Source: Candidatus Kaiserbacteria bacterium (GTDB lineage: Bacteria; Patescibacteriota; Minisyncoccia; Phycocordibacterales; UBA918). Taken from it: a DNA stretch of 64,000 bases. A program made the position numbers and the translations under genes. Below, in pieces: positions 5,357 through 52,461 of this stretch. The stretch is taken from contig JANPCG010000015.1 of the NCBI GenBank assembly GCA_031430855.1, positions 641 to 64,640 of the forward strand. Reading direction: 5' to 3'. The notes under the pieces were generated by a model. It was given only the letters and a program-made list of their open reading frames with translations, did not search any database and had not been told where the DNA came from. Positions within the stretch are counted from its first letter, which is position 1, and every line of letters begins with the position of its first letter.

Positions 5357-6037
5357 TTAGGCGCCCCAGCGTGGTGTTTCAATTGATGTCGCAGGCGGTG
5401 TCGTTGGTTTGGCGTCAGGGGTAGAGGTGTATGCCGGCAGGTCAGAGAGTGGGGTGCGCACTGGCGGTTGCTCCGAGGTATAGACCGGTGTTTCAACGTC
5501 AGCGATTGGTTCATAACTGGTTCGCTCTGGTGACCGCGCCATATCACTCGCCATAGTACGGATTTCAGGCATATGCGGTACTTCTTCAGTCGGAATGGGT
5601 GTAGCGCCGGTGACGGGAATACTCACGCTTGATGGTGGAATATAGAAGGTTGCACTAGAATGAGTGCTGGGGGCAGGTATAGGTGTAGACACTATGGTTT
5701 CTTCGGTTTCCGCATCTTCCTCTTCTGGTACAACAAAAGTTGGGTCAGAGAGTGGCGCCAAGAACTCGAGCACATCTGCCCCTAGTAATCCCGCGGTCGT
5801 CGCGTCTAGCCCAAGCTCTTGTTGGAGGAGTGGGACGGTGTCTTCAGTTCGGTAGAAGCCGAGGATGATGTCCCCCAGAGTTAATATTAAATCTACGTAT
5901 ATTTTTTCAAGGTGGTATTTTGTACTCATCATGATGCTAAGCTCAACAAGTCTTTTGTTGTAAAAGAACTGAATTTTTTCTGAAGACTGTTCGAGCACCT
6001 GTAGTCTTGAGTTGTGAGTTGTGTAGTTATGGTCCAT
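5357..6037 (-). CDS. Hypothetical protein with a Pro/Thr-rich C-terminal tail
   Basis: 226 aa ORF. Low-complexity PT-rich end. Overlaps the upstream gene by 11 nt. Confidence 0.4.
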   Translation of the reverse strand: MDHNYTTHNSRLQVLEQSSEKIQFFYNKRLVELSIMMSTKYHLEKIYVDLILTLGDIILGFYRTEDTVPLLQQELGLDATTAGLLGADVLEFLAPLSDPTFVVPEEEDAETEETIVSTPIPAPSTHSSATFYIPPSSVSIPVTGATPIPTEEVPHMPEIRTMASDMARSPERTSYEPIADVETPVYTSEQPPVRTPLSDLPAYTSTPDAKPTTPPATSIETPRWGA

Positions 6038-8327
6038 ATTTCTTTTTTCCTTCTTCGCTTCTGAAGTACGCTAATACACCTGGCTGAATTCCCCACCGAG
6101 CTGCATTAAATTCAAACACCTGACGAAGTTGAAATCGCTGCGCTTGATCAAGCGTCCCTTCTTTTGCGATTTCTTCAAGTATACCAGAGGATATTTTTGG
6201 ATATGCGGAAGAGTATGAAGCGTCGAGGAAAACCTCTTTCGGTAGTTGGATAAATTCCTTAGGCTTTTTGGCAAGCTCTGTAAGTATTGCGTCCGCACCA
6301 CCTCCAGGACTCTGAATAAGATCCAATATACGAGATTTCTTGTTTTGTTTAATTGAGTCATTAAGTTCAGGGGTGGTTTTCTTAGAATTCTTTGTCCAGT
6401 CATCCAACTGAGTAGCTGATAGTAAATGGCTGTTGGTGGATACCCATTCAACCCCAAGTGTGTCGAGCTCGTCTCGTGTGAGCTTTGAGGTTTTGCTTGG
6501 TGAAGGGGTTGCAATGCCTCCAATTTTATTACCAACGGCAGTTTTTCTTGCGCCAGCAATACCACCCTTTTCACTGGAAGAGATCTTTTCGCTGTCCATT
6601 AGTTTTGAGGTTTGATCAGTAGTAAAGGAAGAAGCGTATTTTGCTCGTGTTTTAGAATCAAGATCTTCGATATCACTTTTTGAAAGACCTGTAATGTATT
6701 GTTTGGCTTTAGCCTCTTCTCCCTCCAGTGATACGAGTTTACTTCTATCGTCTGCTGACATACCAGCGTATGTTGCTGGATTAGCGGCAAGAGAACGGAG
6801 ACGTTCCAATTCAGGTCGATTTTTATCGGTATCTTTGACTGCAGCCCGGCCTTTCTTGGTGTCCTTAATTCCCTGCATTCTTGAACGGTTTTTTGTTACG
6901 TCAGCCTTTTCTGATTCGATTTCACTACGTGTTTTAGCTAGACCGGTTCCGCCGGCGCCGTACTCGTAACCAGACTTAAGTCCGTTACGTAAAGATCGAG
7001 TTCCCGGCAAATTTGACATGCCAGTTCGGTCCATTATGTTCAGACCAAGCTTTGATGCTCTTCCGCCTGTGTTTCTGTAGAGAACACCTTGGGTATTTTT
7101 ACGCAACGTATTTCCCATCGAAATTGCCGTTGAGGCACCAACTGCTCCCATACTACGCGCAACAGACAGTGACATAACCAAGAACACCATTGCCATAATA
7201 AAGAACGGCAAAACAGCCAGCGCACTCTGACTGGTCGCCGGGTCGGGAGAAAACATCGCGGCGTAACTTTGTGCCCCTGGGCGAGTACTGTAGGCGTAAA
7301 GGACGCGGAACGAAAGGTACAACATCAGTAAATAGGCAGGAGCAAAAAATGCTTGTTTAAGAAATCCAGTCCAAAACTTACTCGAAGTCCCGGAGAAGGC
7401 AGGAAACACCCACCCGAGGAACATAACCGGTGAAAACACCATATAGACATTAAGCGCAATAAATCGAATGATAAGTAAGATACCCCCTGCAGCAAACACA
7501 AAAGTGGCAGTTGCAAGGAATATCATTAAACCGAATATATACGCTAATGCCCCACCATTCCCAAATGCCGTTATCTGGCCTTGAGAAATCTCGAGGGTTG
7601 TCTCAAGGTTAAGAATGTTTATGAAGGCATTTGCAATGTCACCGCGCGCTTCACCAAAACCGTCAGCGATTACCGATGATGCCACGTGGGAGAGATCAAT
7701 GATAAATTTGGTAATAAAAAGACTAAAATTTACCAAGAGGGCCGCTCCGATTAAAGACACGAGCATGCTGCGTGCGCGTGAGTCACTCGAATCAAGAATC
7801 ATCTTAAAGCCTATGTATACTAACCCAAAGATAAAGGTGAGGTTAAAGAGGTCTCGAATGATTCGCCACACTTCTTCTACTGCAAAGCCAATCCCGTCAT
7901 TGTAGTAGCGGTCACCAAACCCGAGAAGGAAAGAATTAATACCAAATGTCATCAAATATCCAGCAAAGGAAAAGAGTGTTGTAAACACTGAGTAGACGAA
8001 TTCATAGAGCCATTGGTAGAGTGGGTTGGCAAACTGAACGGTTGGTACTTCAGTGGTTTGGGTCTGAGTTTCTTCGGGTGCAGCCGCGCCCCCGCCAGTA
8101 GTGCCGCCGCCATAGGTGCCAGTTACGGGGTCATATGTTGGAGCAAAGCCGGGTCGGTTAAATTGATCAGAATAGAAACCGCGATCAATAGGGTCTGTCA
8201 CTACCGGCGGTCTCGGACCAAGGTCTCCGGCGTAAGCAGTTTGACTTATAAGAAGAAATCCAAACAGTAACAAACTACCGATCAGTATCGCTATAAAGCT
8301 CTGCATTTTTGTTACCTGTCTAATCAT
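6027..8327 (-). CDS. Large polytopic membrane protein, putative VirB6/TrbL-like T4SS channel component with a hydrophilic Lys-rich C-terminal domain
   Basis: 766 aa. Signal/TM at the N-terminus, a Gly-rich linker, at least six predicted TM helices, then about 350 aa of hydrophilic tail. Position in the cluster fits. Confidence 0.4.
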   Translation of the reverse strand: MIRQVTKMQSFIAILIGSLLLFGFLLISQTAYAGDLGPRPPVVTDPIDRGFYSDQFNRPGFAPTYDPVTGTYGGGTTGGGAAAPEETQTQTTEVPTVQFANPLYQWLYEFVYSVFTTLFSFAGYLMTFGINSFLLGFGDRYYNDGIGFAVEEVWRIIRDLFNLTFIFGLVYIGFKMILDSSDSRARSMLVSLIGAALLVNFSLFITKFIIDLSHVASSVIADGFGEARGDIANAFINILNLETTLEISQGQITAFGNGGALAYIFGLMIFLATATFVFAAGGILLIIRFIALNVYMVFSPVMFLGWVFPAFSGTSSKFWTGFLKQAFFAPAYLLMLYLSFRVLYAYSTRPGAQSYAAMFSPDPATSQSALAVLPFFIMAMVFLVMSLSVARSMGAVGASTAISMGNTLRKNTQGVLYRNTGGRASKLGLNIMDRTGMSNLPGTRSLRNGLKSGYEYGAGGTGLAKTRSEIESEKADVTKNRSRMQGIKDTKKGRAAVKDTDKNRPELERLRSLAANPATYAGMSADDRSKLVSLEGEEAKAKQYITGLSKSDIEDLDSKTRAKYASSFTTDQTSKLMDSEKISSSEKGGIAGARKTAVGNKIGGIATPSPSKTSKLTRDELDTLGVEWVSTNSHLLSATQLDDWTKNSKKTTPELNDSIKQNKKSRILDLIQSPGGGADAILTELAKKPKEFIQLPKEVFLDASYSSAYPKISSGILEEIAKEGTLDQAQRFQLRQVFEFNAARWGIQPGVLAYFRSEEGKKKYGP

Positions 8328-8387: not shown

Positions 8388-9863
8388 TTATGGGAGTATA
8401 CGACGCCACTCATTCACTCGCTGGGAAATTTCACTCGCTGAGGTAAGGGTGCCATTGGCAGTGAGGTCAATAAAATCAACTGCGACGTCCTGCCTAATCG
8501 CTCCAACCGGCTGCTGAGTCGTGGCGGTAGAACTTGCCGTGTCGTGACGGGTAATCATGGTGGTGAGGGTGGTTACATTGGTTTGTACGCCAACTCGAAT
8601 CGTAGTGGCGCTACTAATGAGGCTCACCAATTGGGAACTTGGTGGTGTAGTGTCAGAAGAGACGGTAGAGGTGCCGGCCGGCAGACTGGCTCCGGTAGGG
8701 CTCAAACCACGAGACCTCAGTTCAGCAGTAGCTCGAGCAATGTAGTTGTCAATAATGGCCAAGAAATTTTGTTCATTTTGGAGAGCGGTATTTATCTGAG
8801 TCCTAATCGTTGAGGTGTCAATAAAAATCCTATCGTTTTCTTCGCGAGCAGCATCTATATATGAACTGGTACCATTACTACCAAAACTATTATCCGCATA
8901 CGCTGAGTTTCCACCCAAGCCTAAGAGTCCGTTAATACCACGCATCGCCTGGAGCGTGAGTTGACTAATCAGGGCACCAATAATTTCATTAATTTCGTCT
9001 GCTTCAATTAAGGTTCGCTGTCCGGTTGAGAGCTGGAATGTTAAGGCTTCACTAATTACCTTGCCCGGTGTGGTTATTTTACAATTAGCTCCTTTTCCAG
9101 CCGGTTTACCTTCAATGGCTTCACAAACACGTTTTGAGAGGAAACCATCACTCCAGCTCGCTATTTCAATTTCTTGACCAGCTTCATTTTTGAGTCGAAT
9201 GTCGAGTTTTGCTTCAGCTTCTAGGTAAGCTCCATACGGGGTGTTTTGGGGGTTGCTACTCATTTCAAGCCATTCTTCCCAACCCCCATTACTGACGCCG
9301 CTCAAGAAACCCTCGATATTGTTTTGAATATCGGAAAGTCGACAAGCCGGTGCTGTTGGTCCAGACGGCATGCCGCTCCGCGCCTGCTGGTAGTTAATTG
9401 CCAAAGCGGCCTGGACATCAAGTCGGAATGGTGAACAAATAAATTCACCAATTCCTCCCAGACTACGAATATATTCACCGGCGGCAGTATCAAGTGCATC
9501 AAGTAAAAAACCATTTAAGTCTGTAATAAACGCTGGGCTACCTTGAAATCCAGAGTTAATCCAGTTAACGAGACTCTGGGTCATTTGACTCATAATTTGT
9601 TTGGCAATGGCCCAACCAATTCCATCAAGGAGCTCTTTATTTAAAAGACCGGCCGTAGACACCGCTGTGATACCGGTATTAGCAGCAGTGAGCGTGTTTT
9701 GTACCGCTGAAACAGCTAATTCTGCCTGTTGGGTAATCTGCATTCCTAATGTAGCGTTTCCTCCAGCGGCACGGGTATAAGGAGTTGTTGCAGTAGTGAT
9801 AGTAACTACGAGCACTACCGCAAGGAAGCTCGTACCAAATTTTTGTAGTAAAGAACGTGTCAT
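8388..9863 (-). CDS. Secreted hypothetical protein (signal peptide FLAVVLVVTITTATT), T4SS-cluster associated
   Basis: ORF track 8388..9971. The likely true ATG at 9863 gives MTRSLLQKFGTSFLAVVL... Confidence 0.5.
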   Translation of the reverse strand: MTRSLLQKFGTSFLAVVLVVTITTATTPYTRAAGGNATLGMQITQQAELAVSAVQNTLTAANTGITAVSTAGLLNKELLDGIGWAIAKQIMSQMTQSLVNWINSGFQGSPAFITDLNGFLLDALDTAAGEYIRSLGGIGEFICSPFRLDVQAALAINYQQARSGMPSGPTAPACRLSDIQNNIEGFLSGVSNGGWEEWLEMSSNPQNTPYGAYLEAEAKLDIRLKNEAGQEIEIASWSDGFLSKRVCEAIEGKPAGKGANCKITTPGKVISEALTFQLSTGQRTLIEADEINEIIGALISQLTLQAMRGINGLLGLGGNSAYADNSFGSNGTSSYIDAAREENDRIFIDTSTIRTQINTALQNEQNFLAIIDNYIARATAELRSRGLSPTGASLPAGTSTVSSDTTPPSSQLVSLISSATTIRVGVQTNVTTLTTMITRHDTASSTATTQQPVGAIRQDVAVDFIDLTANGTLTSASEISQRVNEWRRILP

Positions 9864-9873
9864 AATAATTATG

Positions 9874-10791
9874 TTATTGCGGACTAAAGGCAACAAATAC
9901 ATATACCGGATCGTTTTGATTAAACACTTTGACATGTGGAATGAGTACGTTGTATATATTTTGAAGAGCAAAGGCGAGGCCGGTGGCGTCGTCCTGATAA
10001 CGCTTCACGCGCAACAAGGAAACCACCGGATCTTTAAAGGCAAGTTTTAATCCATCTAAACTTGCAAACATAGCTTGATATACATTAATGAGATCGAGGT
10101 GCTGCTTCTCAAAACCGCGTGGTACGGGGGTAGCAAGTGCGTCATCGCGCAGGGCTTTGTACATGGCAATTAGTGGTTCAAGTTTCTCTAATTCAGCGGG
10201 GTTTTCGGTCTTCATCGCGCGATCAATAATCACCAGCTCTCCTTCTGAATTAGGAACATTCCGCGCTGAGAGGCTACTGCCGAGACTGTTCCCCCAGGCG
10301 CGAATTGCTTCCGGGGTGTTTTCTACAACAGTAATCATACTTCCATTATAGATAGTGTCACGAATGACGGTATTTCTGAGGATGTCGGTCGTTTCGGCAA
10401 CGACTTGTTCCGGAGTAGGTCCCACATTCCCCCGCCCTTTTGCCCTTAGGACGGATTGAAAGAGTTGAATACTCATTTGATCAGTAACCGTATTTGGCAC
10501 TTCGTAGACTGATGCGCTTTGGGGCTCAATATCAATTTGGAGTGGTGTTTGGGGGGCAAATTCTTCTTGCCAATCCTCAATTCCGTTTTGATCGCTGTCA
10601 ACCACTTCAATGAATGAACGCTCAGGTGCTGTGGCGGCAACGGTATACACCGATGGGTCTGCTGTTGGTGGAGTGAGGGTCGTCGGTCGAGTTAGGCTAC
10701 TGATAGTATATGAACCACCAACGAGCGCCAAACCAACCACAAACGCGCCGAGAATTTTTGGGTTAGGTTGCATACCCAATAAGTATAACAA
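9874..10791 (-). CDS. Membrane-anchored hypothetical protein
   Basis: 305 aa. N-terminal TM helix (ILGAFVVGLALVGG) then a hydrophilic domain. Confidence 0.5.
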   Translation of the reverse strand: MLYLLGMQPNPKILGAFVVGLALVGGSYTISSLTRPTTLTPPTADPSVYTVAATAPERSFIEVVDSDQNGIEDWQEEFAPQTPLQIDIEPQSASVYEVPNTVTDQMSIQLFQSVLRAKGRGNVGPTPEQVVAETTDILRNTVIRDTIYNGSMITVVENTPEAIRAWGNSLGSSLSARNVPNSEGELVIIDRAMKTENPAELEKLEPLIAMYKALRDDALATPVPRGFEKQHLDLINVYQAMFASLDGLKLAFKDPVVSLLRVKRYQDDATGLAFALQNIYNVLIPHVKVFNQNDPVYVFVAFSPQ

Positions 10792-15196: not shown

Positions 15197-15919
15197 TTGA
15201 ACGTTTCGCAACTTCATGCGTATGTATCGTTGATCATCTTATGTGATGGTAAACTTATGCAAGTGAAATACCTAAGAACTACTTTTTCATTTTTTTGGAG
15301 CGCGCAAATTTATTTACTTGTGGGAGGATTTTTATTTTGGTTCCCAGATGATATAAATTCTTTATTTGGGTATCTTGCCAGTTTCGTATTTACTTCACTC
15401 GGTGCGTGTTTAGTAGTGCTCTCATTTAGAAGTACGTTGCGCCCCGTGGAGTTGTTACTCCCGCTGATACTTTTTTCGGGAATCACCTACTTATTTATTA
15501 AGTATTTTTACATGTCTGAGCGCACAGAAATGTTTGTTCTCGGAATGTATTCTATGGGTTTCACTATGGTAGAAACAGGACGGTTTCTTTATAACAATAG
15601 TAGTATTTCCGATAAACTACATGTCTTCCCTCTCAGTAGCCATTTAGTGGCTAGTACCCTTTCATTAGGAGTTTGGTTTTTTAGTGTTGACTTTTTGCCA
15701 TGGCAGTCGGAAGTTACAATACTAAAAAGTATATTGATTACCTATATTTTGATTGGTGTTAGTATCGTTTTCCTCCAAACATGCGAAAAATATCATGTTA
15801 TATCAATACAAACACTTAAAAAACTTTTCACCTATATTTTTGTATCCGTATTCATTATAACGACCATAAGCCTCTTTTCTTCTTTTGTAGTATTTGAACT
15901 CTCAAATACTAAATTTTAA
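15197..15919 (+). CDS. AT-rich polytopic membrane protein, hypothetical (start uncertain)
   Basis: 240 aa hydrophobic ORF. Local AT content is higher than in neighbouring genes. Confidence 0.4.
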   Translation: MNVSQLHAYVSLIILCDGKLMQVKYLRTTFSFFWSAQIYLLVGGFLFWFPDDINSLFGYLASFVFTSLGACLVVLSFRSTLRPVELLLPLILFSGITYLFIKYFYMSERTEMFVLGMYSMGFTMVETGRFLYNNSSISDKLHVFPLSSHLVASTLSLGVWFFSVDFLPWQSEVTILKSILITYILIGVSIVFLQTCEKYHVISIQTLKKLFTYIFVSVFIITTISLFSSFVVFELSNTKF

Positions 15920-17426
15920 CCCGATATTGAAGCGCCTCCAAAACATGTGTGATTCCTATTTGCTCTGATTGATCGAGGTCAGCAATCGTCCGAGCGACCT
16001 TGATAACTCGATGGTAACTGCGCGGAGAGAGTCTTAATTTTTGTGATGATTGCTTGAGGAGGTCTTTTACTTCAGGCGAAAGTACGATGATGTCATCAAT
16101 ATCACGAGCGGTCATGCTTGCGTTCGTGCTAATCCCCCGCCCATGCAGTCGCTCGTGTTGTGTGGCTCGTGCTTGTGCAATAACGGTGCGGGCCATTTCT
16201 GTCTCGCGTTCGTTTCGATTGACATTGACGAGTGTTTCGTATGCAACATGGGGAACCTCAATCCATAAATCAATCCGATCAAGGATTGGTCCTGAAATTT
16301 TTCCTTTATATGTTTCTTGCATTGCTCTAGCTAAATCAGTTGTTCCGTCATAGTTACCTCGATAGGGATTCATTGCGGCAATTAAAATAAAGTCAGCTGG
16401 AAATTGAGCAGTCCCTTGCACTCGAGCAATGCTCACGACGCGATCTTCAAGCGGTTGTCTGAGAGCATCAAGTGCCCGTCTATCAAATTCGGGAAATTCA
16501 TCCATAAAGAGAACTCCTTTATGGGCTAAAGTAACCTCTCCTGGTTTCGGGTTTGTACCACCGCCAACGAGTGCCGTGTATGACGCTGTATGGTGAGGAG
16601 TCCGAAATGGTGGTGCCGTAGTGATGACACTTTCATTATTTCCTACGAGTGAATGGATTGCTGAAACCGACAGTGCGTCGTCGCGCGTAAGGGGTGGGAG
16701 GATTCCTTGAAAAGCGCGAGCCAGCATGGTTTTCCCTGTTCCAGGCGGTCCCACTAAAAGTACATTGTGTCTTCCGGCAGCGGCAATGATGAGTGCCCGT
16801 TTTGCACTCTCTTGTCCTTTGATATCTTCCAGCTTAGTCTTTGAGTCGTGCCAATCATTTTCGATGGTAGTAATTTTTTGAACAGGAAGCGGTGCGTGTT
16901 GTGGGTTTTGTGGATCAATATGACGAATGATTGCTGTTAAATTTGTTGCTGAAATAATATTGATACCTTCGATTAAGGCTGCTTCTTTCGCATTTTCTTT
17001 CGGGACGATAACTTCAGTAAAGCCAGCTTCTTTCGCTGCAACTACAGCTGCTAAAACTCCGCGGACCGGACGAAGGGTGCCGTCGAGCGCCAGTTCGCCT
17101 ACGTAAATCCTCCGGGTTTTGTCGACGGTAATACACTCAGCAGCCAACAGATAGGCAATTGCAATTGGGACATCAAAGAGCGGTCCCTCTTTTTTGAGGT
17201 CGCTTGGTGCTAATGAAATGACTATTTTATAGTTCTGACTTTTAGGTGATTCAAATCCAGAGTACTTGATGGCAGCACTCACCCGGTCTTTAGCTTCGAG
17301 GGTAGCTTTGCCCGCGAGCCCGACAATGGAAAATGAATGCAGACCCCGCGAGAGGTCTGCTTCAATACTGACTATAGTGCCGGAGAGAACATGAGGTTGG
17401 ACAGTGTAGATTTGAGTAACGCTCAT
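15909..17426 (-). CDS. comM: Mg-chelatase-like AAA+ ATPase YifB/ComM family
   Basis: VGPPGTGKTMLA Walker A. N-terminal Lon-like domain. Likely ATG at 17426 (MSVTQIYTVQ...). Confidence 0.85.
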   Translation of the reverse strand: MSVTQIYTVQPHVLSGTIVSIEADLSRGLHSFSIVGLAGKATLEAKDRVSAAIKYSGFESPKSQNYKIVISLAPSDLKKEGPLFDVPIAIAYLLAAECITVDKTRRIYVGELALDGTLRPVRGVLAAVVAAKEAGFTEVIVPKENAKEAALIEGINIISATNLTAIIRHIDPQNPQHAPLPVQKITTIENDWHDSKTKLEDIKGQESAKRALIIAAAGRHNVLLVGPPGTGKTMLARAFQGILPPLTRDDALSVSAIHSLVGNNESVITTAPPFRTPHHTASYTALVGGGTNPKPGEVTLAHKGVLFMDEFPEFDRRALDALRQPLEDRVVSIARVQGTAQFPADFILIAAMNPYRGNYDGTTDLARAMQETYKGKISGPILDRIDLWIEVPHVAYETLVNVNRNERETEMARTVIAQARATQHERLHGRGISTNASMTARDIDDIIVLSPEVKDLLKQSSQKLRLSPRSYHRVIKVARTIADLDQSEQIGITHVLEALQYRVKI

Positions 17427-17440
17427 GATAGGTGCCGATA

Positions 17441-17815
17441 TTAAAGGTGTACGCGGTACTCTTCTTCCCGGTGCAAAATACACGTCCGGGCGGCAGGGTT
17501 TATCTGCAGGCGCTCTGTTTCGATTACGTTTGTACATACTTCGCAGGTACCAAAGGTTCCGGTTTTTATTTTATCAAGAGCGTGAACAATCGCGTGGTAT
17601 CGGTTTTCTAACTCAGCTAATATACTGACTCGTTCATCAGCCTCTTCCGCAGCATCTGCCAATAGGTCAGTATCAGCTTCAGGGTTGGCTGTATCCGCAG
17701 TCGACACTTCCCAATCATCAGTTTTGGGGTTACGCACAGCAATTTCTCGTAATTCATTTTCAATTTCAAATAGCATGGCGTCTAACTTTTTTCGTTGTTC
17801 AGGTAATTGTTCCAT
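17441..17815 (-). CDS. DksA/TraR-family C4 zinc-finger protein
   Basis: CxxC...CxxC near the C-terminus (CEVCTNVIETERLQINPAARTCILH); coiled-coil N-terminus. Confidence 0.7.
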   Translation of the reverse strand: MEQLPEQRKKLDAMLFEIENELREIAVRNPKTDDWEVSTADTANPEADTDLLADAAEEADERVSILAELENRYHAIVHALDKIKTGTFGTCEVCTNVIETERLQINPAARTCILHREEEYRVHL

Positions 17816-17846: not shown

Positions 17847-19622
17847 CTATTCTGGGAGGTTTTGTTGCAGGTTGAGAAAGGCGTTTTCACTCGTAGTAAT
17901 AACGATAATATTAGGACGAATAAATCCGTATACGATGACTATCGCACCGCTCGCGTTTCGAAGGACACGAACATCAGTCGACGCAATAGATTCATCACGA
18001 AAAGCGCTTGTTTCAATATTGGTGCCAAACCACGAAATCAAATCTTGATTCATTCGTTTTTCCCAATTAAGCATACCGCCGAGAGCCGTTGCTTCATTGA
18101 CTACTAAGAGCGCAAGGAAAGGTTCATTGCGGTAAGCTCCTGGAGTTACTACATTTATCGCTGCGGTAAAGGCAATTGATTCATCAATTTCTAGTTGCGT
18201 AAAGAACTCGGTCGGTGTGATCAAGTTGGTGGTGCTTGCGGCAAAGAGTTCTAGTTCGAGTAATGGCTCTGAAGACTGTGTCGTTTCGCGTAGTCGTTTC
18301 ATTATTTCTTCGCGGGTCAATCCAGAAATGGATAACTGCTGTTGAACACTGGTGGCAAAAAGTGGCGCCCGTACGGCTGGTCCATCTGTGGCATTAGGGA
18401 ATAAGATTGGAGTTACCATATTTACTGTACCCCACAACATAAGTAATCCAATCATAACGACAGCTCCCCCGAGTACAATTCGATTTGTATCAGCAAACCA
18501 AGATTCGAGAGTTGGATTTGTTTTTACTACTTTAGGTATGGTTGGAATAATAGCAGGGGTCCGTGGTTCTGGTGCTGCTTGGGGGGTAACAACCGGTACT
18601 ACAATTGGTTGGGGCATTGTAGGAATGGCTACAACTATTTCTACCTGGGGCACTGGTACGGATGGTAAAACTGCGGGTAGAACCGGAGTTGGGGGAGGGG
18701 TGTGTGGTTGCGGGTTAGGTTCAATATGAACAGGTACGGTTGAAATATGCGCTGCCGGTAGAATCGGTTCTTTGATGATTTCCGGGGTGCTGTGTGCATG
18801 GTTCCTTTCGGGGATTTGGTAGGCATGCGCGACTACTGATTTCGTCGGTACGCTCGGGAAAGATATAGGAGTGTGTGATTCTTCTTTGTGTGTGGTAGAA
18901 GATTCACCCTCCCAGCTCGGTGCGGTTGATTTTGGTTCTATTACTGCAGGTACTGCTGTTGCAACTGCAGGATTCTTTTTATTGTGACGCAGTCGTTCCA
19001 ATACTTGGGCATGGTCTGCCACTGAGGCTCGCCCAGTCAGTGAGGTAGCTTTCTGAATCACTCCTTTACGCCTGTCGGCTTGGGGAACTGAATACTTTGG
19101 TTTCTTTTTTCCGGTTACAATATCTTTTTTATCTTCAAACCACGACGTAATTTTTTTAGTAATGGAACTTCCAAGAGAAAACTGTCGGTATTTGGTATCT
19201 GTGATAATAGTAGCTGTTTGTGATTCCTTCTCCGCGTCTCCAACTAATACACCATGAGAAGGTGTCGTGAGTATTGATGTGCGCTGCTTACTTGCAATAG
19301 CGGTTAGTACCGCCGCATCGATAATGGGACCTTCTTCTTTAATGTGCACAATGGGTGCTTTTCGCGGTCCGGGTTTTTGAAACGCATGAAATGGAGGAAT
19401 TTGAGTAGATGGTGCGTTACTCGTAAGTGGTTTTGATTTTTCTTCAGGCATTGGCTGTTCAGCTTTGAGCGGCATCTTTTTTTCAGTAACAGCTTTGGCC
19501 GCTACTTTTGCTATAACTTTAGATTTTGCACTGACGGCAGGGGTTGGTTGATTGGCAGCTAAATCAGCCGCAAAGGTCCGCACTGCAAATGCCTTTTTTT
19601 GATCCTTTGAGGAGTCACTCAT
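17847..19622 (-). CDS. Hypothetical protein: Pro-rich linker, single TM helix, extracytoplasmic C-terminal domain
   Basis: 591 aa ORF. PxxP-rich middle region. TM helix IVLGGAVVMIGLLMLWG. Confidence 0.5.
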   Translation of the reverse strand: MSDSSKDQKKAFAVRTFAADLAANQPTPAVSAKSKVIAKVAAKAVTEKKMPLKAEQPMPEEKSKPLTSNAPSTQIPPFHAFQKPGPRKAPIVHIKEEGPIIDAAVLTAIASKQRTSILTTPSHGVLVGDAEKESQTATIITDTKYRQFSLGSSITKKITSWFEDKKDIVTGKKKPKYSVPQADRRKGVIQKATSLTGRASVADHAQVLERLRHNKKNPAVATAVPAVIEPKSTAPSWEGESSTTHKEESHTPISFPSVPTKSVVAHAYQIPERNHAHSTPEIIKEPILPAAHISTVPVHIEPNPQPHTPPPTPVLPAVLPSVPVPQVEIVVAIPTMPQPIVVPVVTPQAAPEPRTPAIIPTIPKVVKTNPTLESWFADTNRIVLGGAVVMIGLLMLWGTVNMVTPILFPNATDGPAVRAPLFATSVQQQLSISGLTREEIMKRLRETTQSSEPLLELELFAASTTNLITPTEFFTQLEIDESIAFTAAINVVTPGAYRNEPFLALLVVNEATALGGMLNWEKRMNQDLISWFGTNIETSAFRDESIASTDVRVLRNASGAIVIVYGFIRPNIIVITTSENAFLNLQQNLPE

Positions 19623-23216: not shown

Positions 23217-23534
23217 TTAGCGATATTGCGCTTTGATGATGTTTTGGTATTCATCATAGCTCGAGAAAGGAATTGGCTGATTTCCTATTCCCGTAATCAT
23301 GCCTGACAGTGAGTGTCGGACGTTGTGCGTACGCCACGCTTCCTTGCATCGGTGGTCACAAAAGTAGAGACCACCGAGTACTGCGTCAGCGATATAGGCA
23401 TGTGAACCGTCCCCTTTGATGGAGATGTTGGTTTCGCAGTGGCGACATTGTGTGTGCATGACAATCCCCGGTTGATAATCCTGCACTAAGATGTCATAGC
23501 TCGCACAATGAGTCAAGCGAGTATGTGTCCGCAT
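23217..23534 (-). CDS. Small Cys/His-rich hypothetical protein, candidate toxin partner of the upstream HTH-Panacea gene
   Basis: 105 aa with CRHC...CDHRC, consistent with a zinc ribbon. Start is 4 nt after the upstream stop. Terminator hairpin follows at 23162-23189. Confidence 0.45.
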   Translation of the reverse strand: MRTHTRLTHCASYDILVQDYQPGIVMHTQCRHCETNISIKGDGSHAYIADAVLGGLYFCDHRCKEAWRTHNVRHSLSGMITGIGNQPIPFSSYDEYQNIIKAQYR

Positions 23535-23537
23535 TAT

Positions 23538-24236
23538 TTAAAAGATCATGTGGGATGCTTCGTCGCGAATCGAAGCGTAGGAAATAATTTCATTTGGAAT
23601 TGCAGTTTGAAAAGGGTTTTGTTCTACGGTAAATTTTACAATTTCTGCGGTAGAGGCTCCGGCCCAAGCAAGCCAAATTTTTTCTATGTGTTTCAATTCT
23701 TTAGCACTCAAAAGAGAGAGAGATTTTTTGTTCGAGCCTCTCGTTTCTTCAATCTCGTACATATGATAATCATCACGATAGATTTGTTTGATGGTGATAG
23801 TTCCGTTTTGCTCCAAGTCATCAAGGAGGCGAAAGTACACATCCGCGACCGGTCCAAATTCACCGCGTCGGTACTGTATGCCACTCATGCTTTTGTTCGT
23901 CAGGTAGTACCATGAAAAATCCGCGATATATAATAATTTTGCCAACTTGGTTTTTTTAATTGACTGTTTGGATTTTTTAGCTTCTCGCAAATATGCGAGG
24001 AGCATTTGTTGATACCGAGCTATGTTTGGCGCCTCAGTTTCAAGTAGGGCGTCAAGCGTAATCCCGAATAATTTTGTCAGGCTGGACGCCTCGGCCAAAG
24101 TAAGTTCTTTGGTTCCCTTTTCAACTGCGACATAGGAAGCGCGGGACATGTTGGTATGTTTCGCTACCTGGACTTGCGCGAGGTTTCGTTCATCTCGAAG
24201 AAATTTAATCAGGTGTGCATATGAAGTTTTTTTCAT
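23538..24236 (-). CDS. HTH-XRE DNA-binding domain fused to a Panacea/DUF4065-like domain; putative antitoxin or regulator
   Basis: N-terminal XRE HTH (LAQVQVAKHTNMSRASYVAVEKG). C-terminal KLAKLLYIADF...GEFGPVADVY resembles the Panacea core; this is from memory and not searched. Confidence 0.5.
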   Translation of the reverse strand: MKKTSYAHLIKFLRDERNLAQVQVAKHTNMSRASYVAVEKGTKELTLAEASSLTKLFGITLDALLETEAPNIARYQQMLLAYLREAKKSKQSIKKTKLAKLLYIADFSWYYLTNKSMSGIQYRRGEFGPVADVYFRLLDDLEQNGTITIKQIYRDDYHMYEIEETRGSNKKSLSLLSAKELKHIEKIWLAWAGASTAEIVKFTVEQNPFQTAIPNEIISYASIRDEASHMIF

Positions 24237-24321: not shown

Positions 24322-26739
24322 TTACCTCTTTATATCACTTAGTCCGAGTGTAATTACGTCCCCGCTTTTGATAGTTCCTGAAATAATACGTGAAGCGATA
24401 GCATCTTCAATCGTGTCTTGAATCACCCGTCCCATAGCGCGAGCACCAAATTGTTCATCATAACCCGCTTCTGATATATGAGAAATTAGTTCCGGTTCAA
24501 TTTCCAAGGTGTAGCCTTCCTTGGCTACACGTGCAGTGAGGTCACGGAGTAAGAGAGCGGCAATTTTTTCTTGTTCAGGGCGTGTGAGCGATTCAAAAAT
24601 TATTGTGTTATCAAACCGATTAATTAATTCCGGTCTAAAAATTCCGGCTTTAATAATTCCGGCAATAATTTCAATCTCGAGAGCTGGTGCTGCTCCTCGA
24701 TTATTTTTGGTTCGGGCAATCAGATCACTTCCTGCGTTACTGGTAGCAATCAGTATTGTGTTGCGTACATTAACGCGCTCTCCTCGGTGGCTGGTGAAAA
24801 AACCCTCGTCAAGAATTTGGAGAAACAAGTCATGAACCATCTGATGTGCTTTTTCAAACTCATCAAACAGAACAACGGCATACGGATGTTCATGAAACGC
24901 ATCAGTCAGTACCCCGCTGTTTTGGTCGTCACCAATCAGATGTGCGAGAGCTGTTTCATTGCTATATTCAGACATGTCAAATCGAACAAGGGCCGTCTCA
25001 TCACCAAAAAATACATACGCAAGCGCTTTCGCTGTTTCTGTCTTTCCAACACCCGTTGGTCCGAGAAAGAGAAATGAACCAATTGGTTTATCTGCTCGTT
25101 CAATCGAGACGCGAGCGCGGCGCATGGTTTTTGCTAACGCCGTAATGGCTGCACCTTGTCCAACGATGCGGGTGTGTAACACGTCTTCAAGGTGGAGTAA
25201 CTGATCACGTTCGGTGTCAGTGACAGGGCCGGTTGGGATTCCCGTCTTGTCCCCCAAGAGCTGGCCCACATACGTTTCAGTAATAGTTTTTGTGTTGCTT
25301 CGTGCTCCTATTTCTGCTACCTCTGATAAAAATTGAATTGCACGTTCAGGCATGTCGCCTACGGTAAGGTACCGCTCAGAGCCGCTCGCGATTTTTGCTA
25401 TTGCTGCGTAGGTAAATCGAATACCATAGTAGGCTTCCTTTTTAATCACCAATGGTTCAAGGATAGTGATGGTTTCCTCGACACTGGCTGGTTCAATCAA
25501 GATTTCTTCGAATCTTCTAATAAAGAGCGCATTATTTTCCAAGTGTTGGTGATAAGTGTCAGGCGAGTCGGTCGCCAAAAGGTGAAGTGTCGGAAGGGTC
25601 AAATAAGAATCCAATAAGGTGGTCATATCTACTCCTCGGGCTTTGGTTGCTAAGAGGACCTGGCTCAGGTTAGGAATAATAATTGCATGGTTCCCCGCTC
25701 GTGCAGCCCCACTGAGTATCCGATGGAGCATTAATTCAAATTGGGTGGCTTCGGGGAGTTTTGCCATTAGTCGTTCAATATCAAGAACACTAAAATGGAG
25801 TGACCGAAGCGCATTTAATCCACCACCTCGCGTTATTTTTTTAGCAGCGTGCGCAATAATTCCTAAAGTACCTACCCCTGGGTTGCCAATAAGGAGTACG
25901 TTGGCTGCTCGACTGCGGGCCAAAGCAACTTCAATTTTTTCAATAGCAGCTTTTTGTTCAGTTGAGGTACCTCCCGTTTCAGTGTCCGCAGGTAACCGAG
26001 AAAGTGGCTTTGAAAATTCTTGTAGTTCGTATGGAATACCCTCGGATAACGCACTACCAAGTGCGCCGAGTCGTGACAGCTGATCTCTTCCCCACCAGCG
26101 CTGCTTTCGTACACTATGTTCGTGTGTCTTGGTAACAAAGCGGGTCGTGGCGAGAAACATTGTTTCATCGCAGCCAGCCTGGGTGCATACTGTGCGAAAA
26201 CCAGAATCATATATATATATGTATGTTGCAATATCTACAACGGTAGTCATTCGCTCGGACTGCAGTGGGACTTCGGTAGCCGCTAATTTCATACGGGCAG
26301 CAGTGAGGTAGGCACTGATTGCTTCGGGAGTAATTTCGCAACGCTCAATTATTTCTTTACCCATAGCGGTTCCCCAAAAACCACTCACGATATCACTTTT
26401 ATTCGAGAGGAGAATCAAGGCCGCTCTGTAGGTTAGTCCGGTGTAGATTTTATTAGCGCTGTTTCTAATTGAATCAAATCCGCGAAAATAAAAACTATTA
26501 TGGTAACAATATAAAAGAACCTGCTCTAGCCAGAGCCCAAAAAACAATAATGAAATTCCAAACCAGAGCGGGAGCGGTAGTGCTAATGAAAATATAAACG
26601 TTGCTAAAAATGTCGTGATAGAAATTAAAAATACACAGAAAAATACGATGCGGAGTCTCTGCATCACGCTACGGGGGAGAATACGACTGAGTCTGATAAT
26701 GGGTTCGAAGCTCTGCAATTCTGAGTTAATAGTTTTCAT
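24322..26739 (-). CDS. Membrane-anchored Clp/Hsp100-family AAA+ ATPase. NBD1 has lost both its Walker A lysine and its Walker B acidic pair; NBD2 is intact.
   Basis: Likely ATG at 26739 with an ATGA overlap on the upstream gene. Two N-terminal TM helices. NBD1 reads GNPGVGTLGIIAHAA (no Lys) and its Walker B reads IIIPNLS. NBD2 has GPTGVGKTETAKALA and VVLFDEFEKAH. Confidence 0.75.
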   Translation of the reverse strand: MKTINSELQSFEPIIRLSRILPRSVMQRLRIVFFCVFLISITTFLATFIFSLALPLPLWFGISLLFFGLWLEQVLLYCYHNSFYFRGFDSIRNSANKIYTGLTYRAALILLSNKSDIVSGFWGTAMGKEIIERCEITPEAISAYLTAARMKLAATEVPLQSERMTTVVDIATYIYIYDSGFRTVCTQAGCDETMFLATTRFVTKTHEHSVRKQRWWGRDQLSRLGALGSALSEGIPYELQEFSKPLSRLPADTETGGTSTEQKAAIEKIEVALARSRAANVLLIGNPGVGTLGIIAHAAKKITRGGGLNALRSLHFSVLDIERLMAKLPEATQFELMLHRILSGAARAGNHAIIIPNLSQVLLATKARGVDMTTLLDSYLTLPTLHLLATDSPDTYHQHLENNALFIRRFEEILIEPASVEETITILEPLVIKKEAYYGIRFTYAAIAKIASGSERYLTVGDMPERAIQFLSEVAEIGARSNTKTITETYVGQLLGDKTGIPTGPVTDTERDQLLHLEDVLHTRIVGQGAAITALAKTMRRARVSIERADKPIGSFLFLGPTGVGKTETAKALAYVFFGDETALVRFDMSEYSNETALAHLIGDDQNSGVLTDAFHEHPYAVVLFDEFEKAHQMVHDLFLQILDEGFFTSHRGERVNVRNTILIATSNAGSDLIARTKNNRGAAPALEIEIIAGIIKAGIFRPELINRFDNTIIFESLTRPEQEKIAALLLRDLTARVAKEGYTLEIEPELISHISEAGYDEQFGARAMGRVIQDTIEDAIASRIISGTIKSGDVITLGLSDIKR

Positions 26740-27134
26740 AGTAGTGATGTAATGCAGATATATCCACCACTCACGAGAGCACCAAAAGACACAATCGGAG
26801 CAATCAGCCAAAAAGCATACCCAGTGAGACTTACAAACGTAAGTAGAGATAGGGTTGTGACACCACAGAGTAAAAGGCTGGCTCGAATACATGCGCCAAG
26901 AATACGAGAGAGTGTATTGATAATAAACGCGCTTGACCAGGCAGCAATATCAAATATACGACTCGGCGGTTCGGTGATTCGGCGAAAGGGAGAAAAAAGA
27001 GTCCTGACTAATGTCGACATAGAGAAAAACTCCGTCACGAACCAGGCGAGGTTTCGATAAATCCGCACGTACAGTACTAACGCGTACCCATAGTGCCACA
27101 ACAGATAATGTTGAAGAACACTTACGAAGAACAT
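26736..27134 (-). CDS. Small polytopic membrane protein, translationally coupled to the Clp-like ATPase
   Basis: 132 aa with four hydrophobic helices. Its stop overlaps the downstream ATG (ATGA). Confidence 0.5.
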   Translation of the reverse strand: MFFVSVLQHYLLWHYGYALVLYVRIYRNLAWFVTEFFSMSTLVRTLFSPFRRITEPPSRIFDIAAWSSAFIINTLSRILGACIRASLLLCGVTTLSLLTFVSLTGYAFWLIAPIVSFGALVSGGYICITSLL

Positions 27135-27249
27135 AATGTGTGGTATTAGTATACCGCATCAACATGCCAGAAATTATAGTTTCGTGGATACATATATACA
27201 AAAACAACCTGCGGCTTGCCGCAGGTTGTTTTTGTTCTACGTGAGTAGA

Positions 27250-27450
27250 TTATGCACGACGTACGTTAGTAGCCGCTGGTCCTTTTGGACCGTCTTCGAG
27301 ATCAAAAGTGATTTTGTCACCTTCGTTAAGCTCATCGTAGATGTTATCAACTACTGATTGTGCGTGGAAGAAAACATCCTTTCCGCCATCATCTGGAGTG
27401 ATGAAGCCGTATCCGTTATCTTTCTTCATTCGTGCGATTGTTCCTGTCAT
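27250..27450 (-). CDS. cspA: Cold-shock protein CspA family
   Basis: GTIARMKKDNGYGFI and VFFHAQS RNP motifs. Confidence 0.9.
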   Translation of the reverse strand: MTGTIARMKKDNGYGFITPDDGGKDVFFHAQSVVDNIYDELNEGDKITFDLEDGPKGPAATNVRRA

Positions 27451-31082: not shown

Positions 31083-31170
31083 AATCTCGTCATTGTACCA
31101 GAATTACATTGCTTTTTCGCCTCAGTGCGCGTATTATTTCAACCACTACATTGGCTTCGCTTAATGTACT

Positions 31171-31242
31171 GCACCCGTGGTGAAGTGGATATCATTACTG
31201 ACTTCGGATCAGTCGTCGGGGGTTCGAGTCCCTCCGGGTGCA
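31171..31242 (+). tRNA. tRNA-Arg(TCG), no encoded CCA
   Basis: Manual cloverleaf: acceptor GCACCCG/CGGGTGC; anticodon stem ACTGA/TCAGT with loop CTTCGGA; T-arm GGGGG-TTCGAGT-CCCTC. Confidence 0.85.
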
Positions 31243-31291
31243 CAAATTGGCCGACCCTAATGCGCAAGCATTGGGGTCGTTGCCATTTGTC

Positions 31292-31412
31292 GCGACCGGA
31301 GGGACTCGAAAAGACGCAGCGGGGCCCCTCTGGGCCGCGGCGTCTGGGGTCGAGCGAATGAGGTAATTTATGAACGAAGTGAAATAAATTACCCATGAGA
31401 GTGACCGAGTCC
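31292..31412 (+). repeat. Structured repeat element Y (family 1). It begins with an inverted copy of the tRNA-Arg T-arm/acceptor, then a GC-clamp hairpin, then a hairpin with loop GAACGAAGTGAA, and ends ...CATGAGAGTGACCGAGTCC.
   Basis: Paralogous to 31547..31617 and, in reverse orientation, to 43409..43533. The stems differ but remain complementary. Confidence 0.6.
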
Positions 31413-31451
31413 TTTTGAAAAGCGTTACGCGACTCGAAACCCGATTGAGTT

Positions 31452-31524
31452 GGATTAGGAGCGAAGCGAACTAATCCAACCAATTGGGATACTGAACCTG
31501 TAAGGTTCGAGTCCCCTGTCCCAG
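31452..31524 (+). repeat. Structured repeat element A (family 2): hairpin with loop GAGCGAAGCGAA, then CCAATTGGGATACTGAACCTGTAAGGTTCGAGTCCCCT
   Basis: Paralogous to 32859..32929. The 5-bp stem GAACC/GGTTC co-varies with GAACT/AGTTT in the other copy. Confidence 0.55.
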
Positions 31525-31546
31525 GAGAGGTGTGTTTAATGCTACT

Positions 31547-31617
31547 TCTGGGGTCGAGCGAATGAGCTTTATTGCAAACGAAGTGTAGCAATAAAGCCAT
31601 GAGAGAGACCGAGTCCC
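31547..31617 (+). repeat. Structured repeat element (family 1, partial copy lacking the GC clamp): TCTGGGGTCGAGCGAATGAG-hairpin(loop AAACGAAGTGTA)-CCATGAGAGAGACCGAGTCC
   Basis: Flanks identical to element Y. The stem sequence is entirely different but complementary, which is compensatory change. Confidence 0.6.
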
Positions 31618-52200: not shown

Positions 52201-52461
52201 ATATGTATTGTGAGGTATTCCTCTTAGTTGTAAATAATCCTTAAATTCATCACTTTTTGGACAAAGAACGCGCGGGCAAGCGCCCGCGCGGAAGTCATAT
52301 ATACTATAGCTTCCTTTTGTGTGATTGTCAAAATGATAAATCAAACGACATACTGAATTATTTTTTGTGTTTGCAAACAGTCAAAACAAAAATCTGACGG
52401 AAACGTTTGCTATACTATAAGTACGACAAGTTCTTTTGTTCGTTAATTTTTGGAGCATCAC

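What the first reader, a model, noticed from the sequence alone, without database searches (positions are those of the whole stretch)
24322..27134. Membrane-anchored Clp/Hsp100 ATPase with a dead first NBD, co-translated with a small membrane protein
The Clp-like protein starts with two TM helices ahead of a Clp-N-like repeat. Its first AAA module has lost the Walker A lysine (GNPGVGTLGIIAHAA versus the canonical GxPGVGKTAI). Its Walker B acidic pair is also gone (IIIPNLS versus DELH). NBD2 is intact (GPTGVGKTE, VVLFDEFEKAH). The upstream 132-aa four-helix membrane protein overlaps it by ATGA. This suggests a membrane-tethered disaggregase, or an unfoldase feeding a membrane protease or secretion route. 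It is an atypical arrangement compared with cytosolic ClpB/ClpC.
Basis: seen in the sequence. Interest (0 to 1): 0.5.

Follow-up and report, generated by a model that had tools for sequence, protein, structure and literature searches.

The report
Membrane-anchored half-dead Clp ATPase with partner
This is a real two-gene operon from an uncultured Patescibacteria (CPR) bacterium, encoding a small membrane protein and a membrane-anchored ClpB/ClpA-like ATPase whose first motor ring is dead and whose substrate-gripping loops are missing; the pair is conserved across this lineage and appears undescribed.

Summary

New points:
- There is no M-domain and no ClpP-docking IGF/IGL/VGF loop.
- Both canonical pore-loop tyrosines are gone. 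The NBD2 GYVG loop is shortened from 17 to 11 residues.
- The N-terminal module defines a family of 334 clusters at 50% identity. Named members are all Patescibacteria (Kaiserbacteria, Taylorbacteria, Paceibacteria).
- Across 77 representatives, NBD1 keeps GK[ST] in 2 and a Walker B DE in none, while NBD2 catalytic motifs are conserved.
- The small protein has no known family. It lies immediately upstream in 27 of 27 loci, including two with unrelated neighbours.

It is therefore not a ClpB-type disaggregase and not a ClpP partner. The likeliest reading is a protease-independent AAA+ machine driven by one active ring. It would be pinned entry-face-down on the cytoplasmic membrane together with its small partner. 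Function is inferred, not shown. I rate it a new variant of a known kind.

The parts
26736..27134 (-). Gene for the 132-aa small membrane partner. It has conserved YLxWHY, FFSxxxL and PxKRITE motifs, invariant R77 and R84, and an uncharged hydrophobic C-terminal stretch of 48 residues (85-132).
   Evidence: ORF. No Pfam, NCBIfam, PADLOC or PDB match. At least 281 homologues of about 128-133 aa. Alignment. AF2 pLDDT 86. Hydropathy and charge profile.
24322..26739 (-). Gene for the 805-aa membrane-anchored Clp/Hsp100-type ATPase. The stop codon is 24322..24324. Its ATG overlaps the TGA of the upstream gene (ATGA).
   Evidence: The same protein is called identically in GCA_043735715.1.
26488..26739 (-). 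Residues 1-84: an N-terminal basic helix (4-20), TM1 (23-50), a short outside loop, and TM2 (56-84). TM2 ends in the highly conserved juxtamembrane motif WLEQxLLYCYHNSFYFRGFDS (residues 70-90, 26470..26532).
   Evidence: Hydropathy in all members. AF2 model. Conservation. Coordinates.
26101..26439 (-). Residues 101-213: a Clp_N-fold (double-repeat) N-domain, followed by the invariant RWW[GS]RD junction motif (26083..26100).
25288..25953 (-). Residues 263-484: pseudo-ATPase NBD1. Degenerate Walker A is GNPGVGTL (25864..25887). Degenerate Walker B is AIIIPNLS (25663..25686). The pore-loop-1 region MAKLPEATQFE has no Tyr (25735..25767). The RRF Arg pair is retained (25504..25521). The AAA_lid_9 domain spans residues 419-475. 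No M-domain follows.
24325..25287 (-). Residues 485-805: active NBD2 plus the D2-small domain. Walker A is GPTGVGKT (25039..25062). Walker B is VVLFDEFEK (24850..24876). The shortened pore loop is LIGDDQNSGVL (24907..24939). Sensor-1 is at 24727..24750, the Arg finger at 24610..24627 and sensor-2 at 24427..24450. There is no ClpP loop.
   Evidence: Pfam AAA_2 3.9e-41 and ClpB_D2-small 7e-20. PDB alignment. Motif tables. Coordinates.
27148..27153 (-). A TATACT -10-like box 13 nt upstream of the small-gene ATG. It is the probable operon promoter and implies a very short or absent leader.
   Evidence: A TATACT or TATAAT box occurs close upstream of the ATG in most of the 27 loci. Coordinates. This is a consensus resemblance only; no transcript data.
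27199..27228 (-). Hairpin plus T-run that ends the upstream cold-shock (CSD) gene. It separates that gene from the operon.
   Evidence: Sequence. Terminator scan. Similar hairpins lie in the same place in many related loci.

Best explanation
A two-gene operon encodes a lineage-specific membrane AAA+ machine of Patescibacteria.

Shown:
- The large subunit is a Clp/Hsp100 class-I protein. Its order is an N-in helical hairpin anchor, a Clp_N-fold domain, a catalytically dead NBD1, and a fully competent NBD2.
- It lacks the ClpB M-domain, the ClpP-docking loop and the canonical pore-loop tyrosines.
- The small subunit is an orphan membrane protein that always sits immediately upstream.

Inferred:
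- The ATPase forms a hexamer. Its N-domain/NBD1 face is held against the cytoplasmic side of the membrane by twelve TM helices.
- The small protein, with a cytoplasmic amphipathic head and a C-terminal hairpin, is a fixed membrane partner. It probably contacts the conserved juxtamembrane motif and/or the Clp_N domain.
- NBD1 is a structural spacer and assembly ring.
- ATP hydrolysis in NBD2 alone drives remodelling or release of membrane-associated client proteins, or of the partner itself. This would not need ClpP or DnaK.
- In the window's clade it would also work without classical tyrosine-mediated threading.
For: - Domain homology and motif states come from the HMMER alignment to ClpB and ClpA structures, Pfam and NCBIfam.
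- NBD1 is decayed family-wide. GK[ST] never occurs in 39 close members. In 77 cluster representatives it occurs in 2, and a Walker B DE in none.
- In the same sequences the NBD2 Walker A and B, Arg finger and sensor-2 are conserved.
- NBD2-large mean pairwise identity is 0.51-0.66, against 0.28-0.46 for NBD1.
- There is no ClpP loop. There is no M-domain: ClpA aligns in one stretch, and the ClpB alignment skips residues 400-493.
- The TM hairpin and Clp_N fold are supported.
- The partner gene is adjacent on the same strand, with a gap of -4 to +15 nt, in 25/25 loci. It is also adjacent in two distant loci whose other neighbours are unrelated, with hmmsearch E about 1e-35.
- The family is large and old: 334 clusters at 50% identity, 213 at E<=1e-10, mostly 790-830 aa.
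- Every source name or record title that specifies a taxon is Patescibacteria/CPR; two are only '[bacterium]'.
Against: - No experiment or expression data exists, so function is inferred from architecture only.
- Hexamer formation and the contact between the two proteins were not modelled.
- 34 of 77 family representatives keep an aromatic residue (mostly GSF) in the shortened NBD2 loop. Threading may therefore be the ancestral and still-used mechanism in part of the family.
- The closer relatives keep the NBD1 Arg pair RRF, which hints at residual nucleotide-dependent contacts.
- The linker after TM2 (residues 85-100, low pLDDT) could allow orientations other than entry-face-to-membrane.
Confidence: 0.45

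Rival explanations
1. It is a classical threading dislocase or unfoldase, in the manner of FtsH or Msp1. It would pull membrane proteins out of the bilayer through its axial channel using non-canonical pore residues, then hand them to a separate protease or release them.
For: An N-terminal anchor places the Hsp100 entry face at the membrane. A Clp_N substrate/adaptor domain is kept. 34/77 family clusters retain a Phe or Tyr in the shortened NBD2 loop. The NBD2 ATPase site is strictly conserved.
Against: The window protein and its whole clade have no aromatic residue in either pore loop. The NBD2 loop is LIGDDQNSGVL, against LVGAPPGYVGYEEGGYL in ClpB. NBD1 cannot hydrolyse ATP. There is no ClpP loop and no protease domain.
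Confidence: 0.2
2. The small hairpin protein is itself the client. It would form an oligomer or polymer in or on the membrane, acting as a scaffold, channel or curvature element. The ATPase would assemble, gate or disassemble it. This is analogous in logic to Vps4 with ESCRT-III or to Torsin with LAP1.
Confidence: 0.2
3. It is a membrane-tethered ClpB-type disaggregase that stands in for cytosolic ClpB.
For: The best full-length database matches are ClpB: TIGR03346 at 8.9e-119 and PDB ClpB at 1.8e-96. The ClpP-loop region is of ClpB-like length.
Against: The score is far below the ClpB equivalog cut-off (398 against 1232). There is no M-domain for DnaK coupling. NBD1 is dead, whereas established knowledge holds that ClpB disaggregation needs both rings. 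Both pore tyrosines are missing. No CIRCE heat-shock operator was found upstream in any locus.
Confidence: 0.07
4. It is part of a mobile defence or toxin-antitoxin module, or a decaying non-functional gene.
For: PADLOC DolB and PDC-M37B models hit the NBD2 region at 3.6e-36. An HTH plus SocA_Panacea antitoxin-like gene lies directly downstream. NBD1 motifs drift freely.
Against: The PADLOC hits cover only the generic AAA_2 region (residues 504-672), and the small protein hits nothing. The Panacea gene is adjacent only in the closest relatives. The pair sits among housekeeping genes (CSD, S15, NYN, PNPase) in a syntenic core. NBD2, the juxtamembrane motif and the full length are conserved over 334 clusters, which excludes decay.
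Confidence: 0.03

Closest known systems
ClpA and ClpC (class-I Clp/Hsp100 unfoldases that partner ClpP)
   Same: Domain order is Clp_N domain, NBD1, short linker without an M-domain, NBD2, D2-small. ClpA aligns in a single stretch, query 265-801 to ClpA 194-736.
   Different: This protein has an N-terminal TM hairpin, a dead NBD1, no IGL/VGF ClpP-docking loop and no KYR or GYVG pore tyrosines. Its ClpA model score is 339 against a cut-off of 993.
ClpB and Hsp104 disaggregases
   Same: These give the highest sequence similarity, especially in NBD2 (100/228 identical to E. coli ClpB). They are also ClpP-independent, with a short loop where ClpA and ClpC carry IGL or VGF.
   Different: This protein has no coiled-coil M-domain, a dead NBD1, an NBD2 pore loop shortened by 6 residues, and a membrane anchor.
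FtsH, Msp1 and Bcs1 (N-terminally membrane-anchored AAA+ machines)
   Same: The geometry is shared: an N-terminal TM anchor holds the ring's entry face at the cytoplasmic (or matrix) side of a membrane. This is a resemblance in how it may work, drawn from established knowledge of those families.
   Different: They belong to a different AAA+ clade and have a single ATPase ring. FtsH carries an M41 protease, and FtsH and Msp1 have aromatic pore loops. No protease domain is present here.
Torsin with LAP1/LULL1
   Same: Torsin is a relative of Clp D2-type modules. It is membrane-associated, lacks aromatic pore-loop residues, and works with a dedicated small membrane cofactor (reviews PMC5425593 and PMC7175109, listed; cited from background knowledge, not read here).
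   Different: Torsin is a single-ring eukaryotic ER-lumenal protein that lacks its own Arg finger. Here the NBD2 Arg finger (NRFD) and sensor-2 are conserved. This is an analogy only.
Tandem AAA+ proteins with one inactive ring (Pex1/Pex6 D1, NSF D2)
   Same: One ring is a non-hydrolysing scaffold and the other is the motor.
   Different: Those belong to the classical AAA clade. To my knowledge a family-wide dead D1 has not been described within Clp/Hsp100. The four text searches that touched on this found nothing.

Membership tests
Clp/Hsp100 class I (two-ring) AAA+ superfamily | Two tandem AAA+ modules homologous to Clp D1 and D2, plus the D2-small domain | tested here: met
   NBD1 aligns to ClpB 193-399 and NBD2 to ClpB 494-849. 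Pfam finds AAA_lid_9, AAA_2 and ClpB_D2-small.
Clp/Hsp100 class I (two-ring) AAA+ superfamily | Clp_N double-repeat N-terminal domain | tested here: met
Clp/Hsp100 class I (two-ring) AAA+ superfamily | Functional Walker A (GK[ST]) and Walker B (DE) in both rings | tested here: not met
   NBD1 has GVGTL and IIPNLS. Across the family, GK[ST] occurs in 2/77 and DE in 0/77. NBD2 is intact.
Clp/Hsp100 class I (two-ring) AAA+ superfamily | Aromatic pore loops (KYR in D1, GYVG in D2) | tested here: not met
   D1 has AKLPEA. The D2 loop is LIGDDQNSGVL with a 6-residue deletion. Only 34/77 distant relatives carry a Phe or Tyr in the short loop.
ClpB/Hsp104 disaggregase | Coiled-coil M-domain inserted in the NBD1 small subdomain, and the equivalog score | tested here: not met
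   ClpB residues 400-493 have no counterpart. TIGR03346 scores 398 against a cut-off of 1232.
ClpA/ClpC/ClpE (ClpP-activating) | [ILV]G[FL] ClpP-docking loop between sensor-1 and the Arg finger of NBD2 | tested here: not met
   The tripeptide is absent in 39/39 members, and the region is 41 aa against 38 in ClpB. TIGR02639 scores 339 against a cut-off of 993.
ClpV/TssH (type VI secretion) | Equivalog score and T6SS gene context | tested here: not met
   TIGR03345 scores 283 against a cut-off of 885. No T6SS genes appear in any of the gene-annotated loci.
ClpK/ClpG stand-alone disaggregases | NCBIfam exception-model score | tested here: not met
   Scores are 322 and 310 against a cut-off of 1900.
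FtsH | TM anchor, a single AAA module and an M41 zinc protease domain | tested here: not met
   There is no Peptidase_M41 hit, and the architecture has two AAA+ modules.
Dodola (DolA/DolB) defence system | DolB ATPase together with DolA | tested here: not met
   The DolB model matches only the generic NBD2 core (residues 504-671). The neighbours have no PADLOC hit to DolA.
New family proposed here: TM-hairpin Clp plus small membrane partner of Patescibacteria | N-terminal TM hairpin with a WLEQxLLYxYxNSFYFxG-like motif, a Clp_N-fold domain, the RWWxRD junction, pseudo-NBD1, active NBD2 with a shortened pore loop, and the partner gene immediately upstream | tested here: met
New family proposed here: TM-hairpin Clp plus small membrane partner of Patescibacteria | Physical complex of the two proteins, and hexameric assembly at the membrane | not testable with these tools

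The most novel reading that the evidence does not exclude
The pair forms a membrane-embedded ring specific to Patescibacteria. Six ATPase hairpins plus six partner hairpins would give at least 24 TM helices. A single active Clp D2-type ring would work without tyrosine threading. This would be a bacterial, Torsin-like or Bcs1-like 'non-threading' Hsp100. It would gate, assemble or dismantle a membrane structure, or move cargo between membrane and cytoplasm, in these ultra-small and often episymbiotic cells.
Probability: 0.15. Interest if true: 0.8.

Novelty: new variant of a known kind. Interest (0 to 1): 0.55.

Why it matters
Clp/Hsp100 machines are textbook two-motor threading enzymes. This family keeps the scaffold but has silenced one motor, trimmed the gripping loops, added a membrane anchor and acquired an obligatory small membrane subunit. 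It therefore tests how much of the canonical mechanism is dispensable.

The family is also a widely conserved, apparently core gene pair of Patescibacteria. These organisms have tiny genomes, and most of their lineage-specific membrane proteins have no assigned role. Public annotation calls the ATPase 'ClpC', 'AAA family ATPase', 'hypothetical protein' or 'ATP-dependent Clp protease ATP-binding subunit'. The ClpC and Clp-protease-subunit names are misleading, because the protein has no ClpP-docking loop.

Tried and rejected
- Pfam, NCBIfam, PADLOC and the PDB profile search found nothing for the small protein. The only PDB hit, EME1 at E 0.26, is chance.
- The afdb50 Foldseek library was unavailable.
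- The genome scan with the 34-sequence small-protein alignment failed for lack of a conserved 7-10-column stretch. I repeated it with the Clp N-terminal alignment.
- A search for a CIRCE heat-shock operator upstream of the operon in all loci found none.
- The promoter and terminator scan was at or below shuffle expectation and is used only descriptively.
- Four literature searches found nothing on this family. The terms were Patescibacteria/ClpB/transmembrane, CPR/AAA+/membrane-anchored/Clp, Parcubacteria/Hsp100, and Hsp100/transmembrane/degenerate/Walker A/pore loop.
- I rejected the frameshift or misalignment explanation for NBD1. The frame is continuous and the state is shared by all homologues.
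- I rejected the longer 856-aa ORF start at 26892. No homologue or gene call supports it.
- I rejected a functional link to the HTH-Panacea gene. It is adjacent only in the closest relatives.
Full report
**1. What is at the coordinates**

On the minus strand, a 132-aa ORF (26736..27134) is followed by a long ORF that ends at 24322. The mechanical ORF list starts the long ORF at 26892 (856 aa). Every homologue and the public gene calls instead start at the ATG at 26739 (MKTINSELQ..., 805 aa).

At that ATG the sequence reads ...TCA CTA CTA TGA AAA CT... The stop codon of the small gene and the start of the large gene therefore overlap as ATGA. The identical protein and gene order occur in a public MAG, GCA_043735715.1.

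A hairpin with a T-run (27199..27228) ends the upstream cold-shock gene. A TATACT box (27148..27153) lies 13 nt before the small-gene ATG. The two genes therefore look like their own transcription unit. The downstream HTH-Panacea gene has its own TTGACA-17-TACACT site.

**2. The ATPase**

Pfam finds AAA_lid_9 (residues 419-475), AAA_2 (551-711) and ClpB_D2-small (718-797). It finds no AAA model over NBD1 and no Clp_N. NCBIfam places the protein far below every Clp equivalog cut-off:

| Model | Score | Cut-off |
|---|---|---|
| ClpB | 398 | 1232 |
| ClpA | 339 | 993 |
| ClpV | 283 | 885 |
| ClpK | 322 | 1900 |
| ClpG | 310 | 1900 |

- Walker A: LIGNPGVGTLGII against LIGEPGVGKTAIV. Both the Lys and the Thr are lost.
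- Walker B: AIIIPNLS against ILFIDELH. Both the Asp and the Glu are lost.
- NBD2 is canonical: GPTGVGKTE, LFDEFEK, sensor-1 N, NRFD and FGAR.

- ClpB residues 400-493 (the M-domain) have no counterpart, whereas ClpA aligns in one uninterrupted stretch.
- The NBD1 pore loop AGAKYRGEFE is replaced by MAKLPEATQFE, which has no Tyr.
- The NBD2 pore loop GAPPGYVGYEEGG is replaced by GDDQNSG. This is a six-residue deletion that removes GYVG.

A regex over the segment between sensor-1 and the Arg finger finds no [ILVM]G[FLM] ClpP-docking tripeptide in any of 39 family members. That segment is of ClpB-like length.

**3. The N-terminus**

Two hydrophobic segments, at about residues 29-49 and 57-78, recur in all family members. 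AlphaFold2 on residues 1-216 with a 14-sequence alignment gave mean pLDDT 87.7. The model has:
- a basic N-terminal helix (4-20);
- helices 23-50 and 56-84, joined by a loop of about 5 residues;
- a low-confidence linker (85-100);
- a compact helical domain (101-213).

The basic N-terminus and the need for cytoplasmic ATP argue for an N-in/C-in hairpin. Almost nothing would be exposed outside the cell. This is inference.

The most conserved non-catalytic elements are the juxtamembrane motif WLEQxLLYCYHNSFYFRGFDS and the RWW[GS]RD junction.

**4. The small protein**

It matches nothing in Pfam, NCBIfam, PADLOC or the PDB. It has at least 281 homologues of 124-190 aa, nearly all 128-133 aa. Invariant or near-invariant positions include Y10, W13-H14-Y15, F37-S38, P49, R52, S76-R77, R84, G91 and P113.

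**5. Is the pairing conserved?**

Yes. The evidence is as follows.
- In nine loci reached by exact-protein look-ups, the order is CSD, then the small protein, then the ~805-811-aa ATPase.
- A scan of one genome per GTDB species with two N-terminal motifs returned 16 loci. They are titled Ca. Kaiserbacteria, Paceibacteria/Paceibacterota, Parcubacteria, Patescibacteria group, 'uncultured Ca. Saccharibacteria', Ca. Elulimicrobium sp. and, for one, only 'bacterium'.
- HMM searches of all ORFs showed the small protein directly upstream on the same strand in 25/25 loci.
- Two distant family members (P0212 and P0259) sit in unrelated neighbourhoods: seryl-tRNA synthetase on one side, and glyoxalase and NUDIX on the other. 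Each still has a homologue of the small protein 3-6 nt upstream, at E about 1e-35.

The gap between the two genes ranges from -4 to +15 nt. The CSD neighbour and the HTH-Panacea neighbour are clade-level synteny only.

**6. How general are the odd features?**

A filter-free profile search with the N-terminal module found 334 clusters at 50% identity, 213 of them at E<=1e-10. Full-length members are mostly 790-830 aa.

In 39 close members, NBD1 never has GK[ST]. Seventeen keep the Lys, but it is followed by I, M, L or K. Walker B is IENLS, IPELS or IPNLS.

In 77 cluster representatives with intact NBD2:
- NBD1 GK[ST] occurs in 2.
- Walker B DE occurs in none.
- The NBD2 pore loop is 11-13 residues in 75 of the 77 (one is 14 and one 5), against 17 in ClpB.
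- 34 carry an aromatic residue in that loop (mostly G-S-F), and 43 carry none.

The window's clade carries none. Mean pairwise identity is 0.51-0.66 for NBD2-large against 0.28-0.46 for NBD1. NBD1 is therefore an old, structurally retained pseudo-ATPase domain, not a recent lesion or an alignment artefact.

**7. Interpretation**

Shown:
- This is a conserved two-subunit membrane module.
- The ATPase has one active ring (D2) and a scaffold ring (D1).
- It has a Clp_N domain tethered about 15 residues from the bilayer.
- It lacks every feature that defines ClpB function (the M-domain), ClpA/C/E function (the ClpP loop) or classical threading (the pore tyrosines).

Inferred:
- It forms a hexamer with its entry face against the cytoplasmic leaflet, as in FtsH and Msp1.
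- The small protein is a fixed partner.
- D2 hydrolysis remodels or releases membrane-associated clients, or the partner itself.

I weight the rivals as follows: classical dislocase 0.2, partner-as-client 0.2, tethered disaggregase 0.07, defence/TA module or decaying gene 0.03.

**8. Comparison and novelty**

The closest architecture is ClpA/ClpC, which also lack an M-domain. The closest sequence is ClpB NBD2. The closest working analogies are FtsH, Msp1 and Bcs1 for geometry, Torsin-LAP1 for a D2-like ring without aromatic loops plus a membrane cofactor, and Pex1/6 or NSF for one silent ring.

Membership of the Clp/Hsp100 superfamily is met by homology and fold. Membership of every named functional subfamily fails on tested defining features. 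Source annotations are generic or misleading: 'ClpC', 'AAA family ATPase', 'hypothetical protein'. Four full-text searches found no description of this family. I class it as a new variant of a known kind, with interest 0.55.

**9. Limits**

- There are no expression or biochemical data.
- No multimer model was made.
- The taxonomy of most metagenomic members is unknown.
- I could not test whether the same genomes also carry clpB, clpP or ftsH. Only 64 kb of this genome is available, and it contains no other Clp, ClpP or FtsH gene among the ORFs scanned.

Noticed in passing
window 23538..24236 (-): A 232-aa protein with an HTH_3 domain plus a SocA_Panacea domain, which is a PanA-like antitoxin architecture. 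It lies directly downstream of the ATPase and has its own TTGACA-17-TACACT promoter-like site. No obvious toxin gene is called beside it; the overlapping 105-aa ORF 23217..23534 is not called in the public records. It is adjacent to the ATPase only in the closest relatives.
   Followed up: partly
window 27148..27153 (-), and the equivalent positions in L003-L027: A conserved TATACT/TATAAT -10-like box lies roughly 6-26 nt upstream of the small-gene ATG in most loci. No Shine-Dalgarno-like spacing is evident. This suggests a leaderless or very short-leader mRNA for the operon.
   Followed up: partly
window 27250..27450 (-), with the hairpin at 27199..27228: A 66-aa cold-shock (CSD) protein gene with a strong hairpin plus T-run lies upstream of the operon. 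The CSD, small protein and ATPase trio is conserved in the Kaiserbacteria/Paceibacteria loci (9/9 gene-annotated loci L001-L009; not checked in L010-L025), but not in two distant loci (L026, L027).
   Followed up: partly
window 31139..31600 (-) and 31171..31243 (+): A 153-aa ORF is called as a gene in public assemblies but has no Pfam hit. It overlaps tRNA-Arg(tcg) on the other strand, so the protein call is probably at least partly spurious.
   Followed up: no
window 6027..8327, 8388..9971, 9874..10791, 17847..19622 (all -): Four large ORFs (766, 527, 305 and 591 aa) have no Pfam family at E<=1e-5. They lie next to a TraG-like P-loop ATPase (2437..4236). This may be a lineage-specific surface or conjugation-like cluster.
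   Followed up: no
window 52450..54213 (+), 15909..17537 (-), 47390..48577 (-), 44632..46161 (-): A PilB/T2SSE ATPase, a ComM/Mg-chelatase-like AAA+ protein with a Lon_C-like N-domain, trigger factor and RNase Y. This is typical Patescibacteria core and competence/pilus content. No ClpP, ClpX, ClpB or FtsH was found among the ORFs scanned in this window.
   Followed up: no
P0160 and P0261 (family representatives, not in the window): These are the only two of 77 family clusters that still have a canonical GK[ST] in the NBD1 Walker A (GEAGVGKSDI and GPEGSGKTDV). Both still lack the Walker B DE. They may be evolutionary intermediates.
   Followed up: no
P0280 and P0315 (921-946 aa; not in the window): Some family members carry an N-terminal extension of about 100 or more residues ahead of the TM hairpin. 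Its nature was not examined.
   Followed up: no
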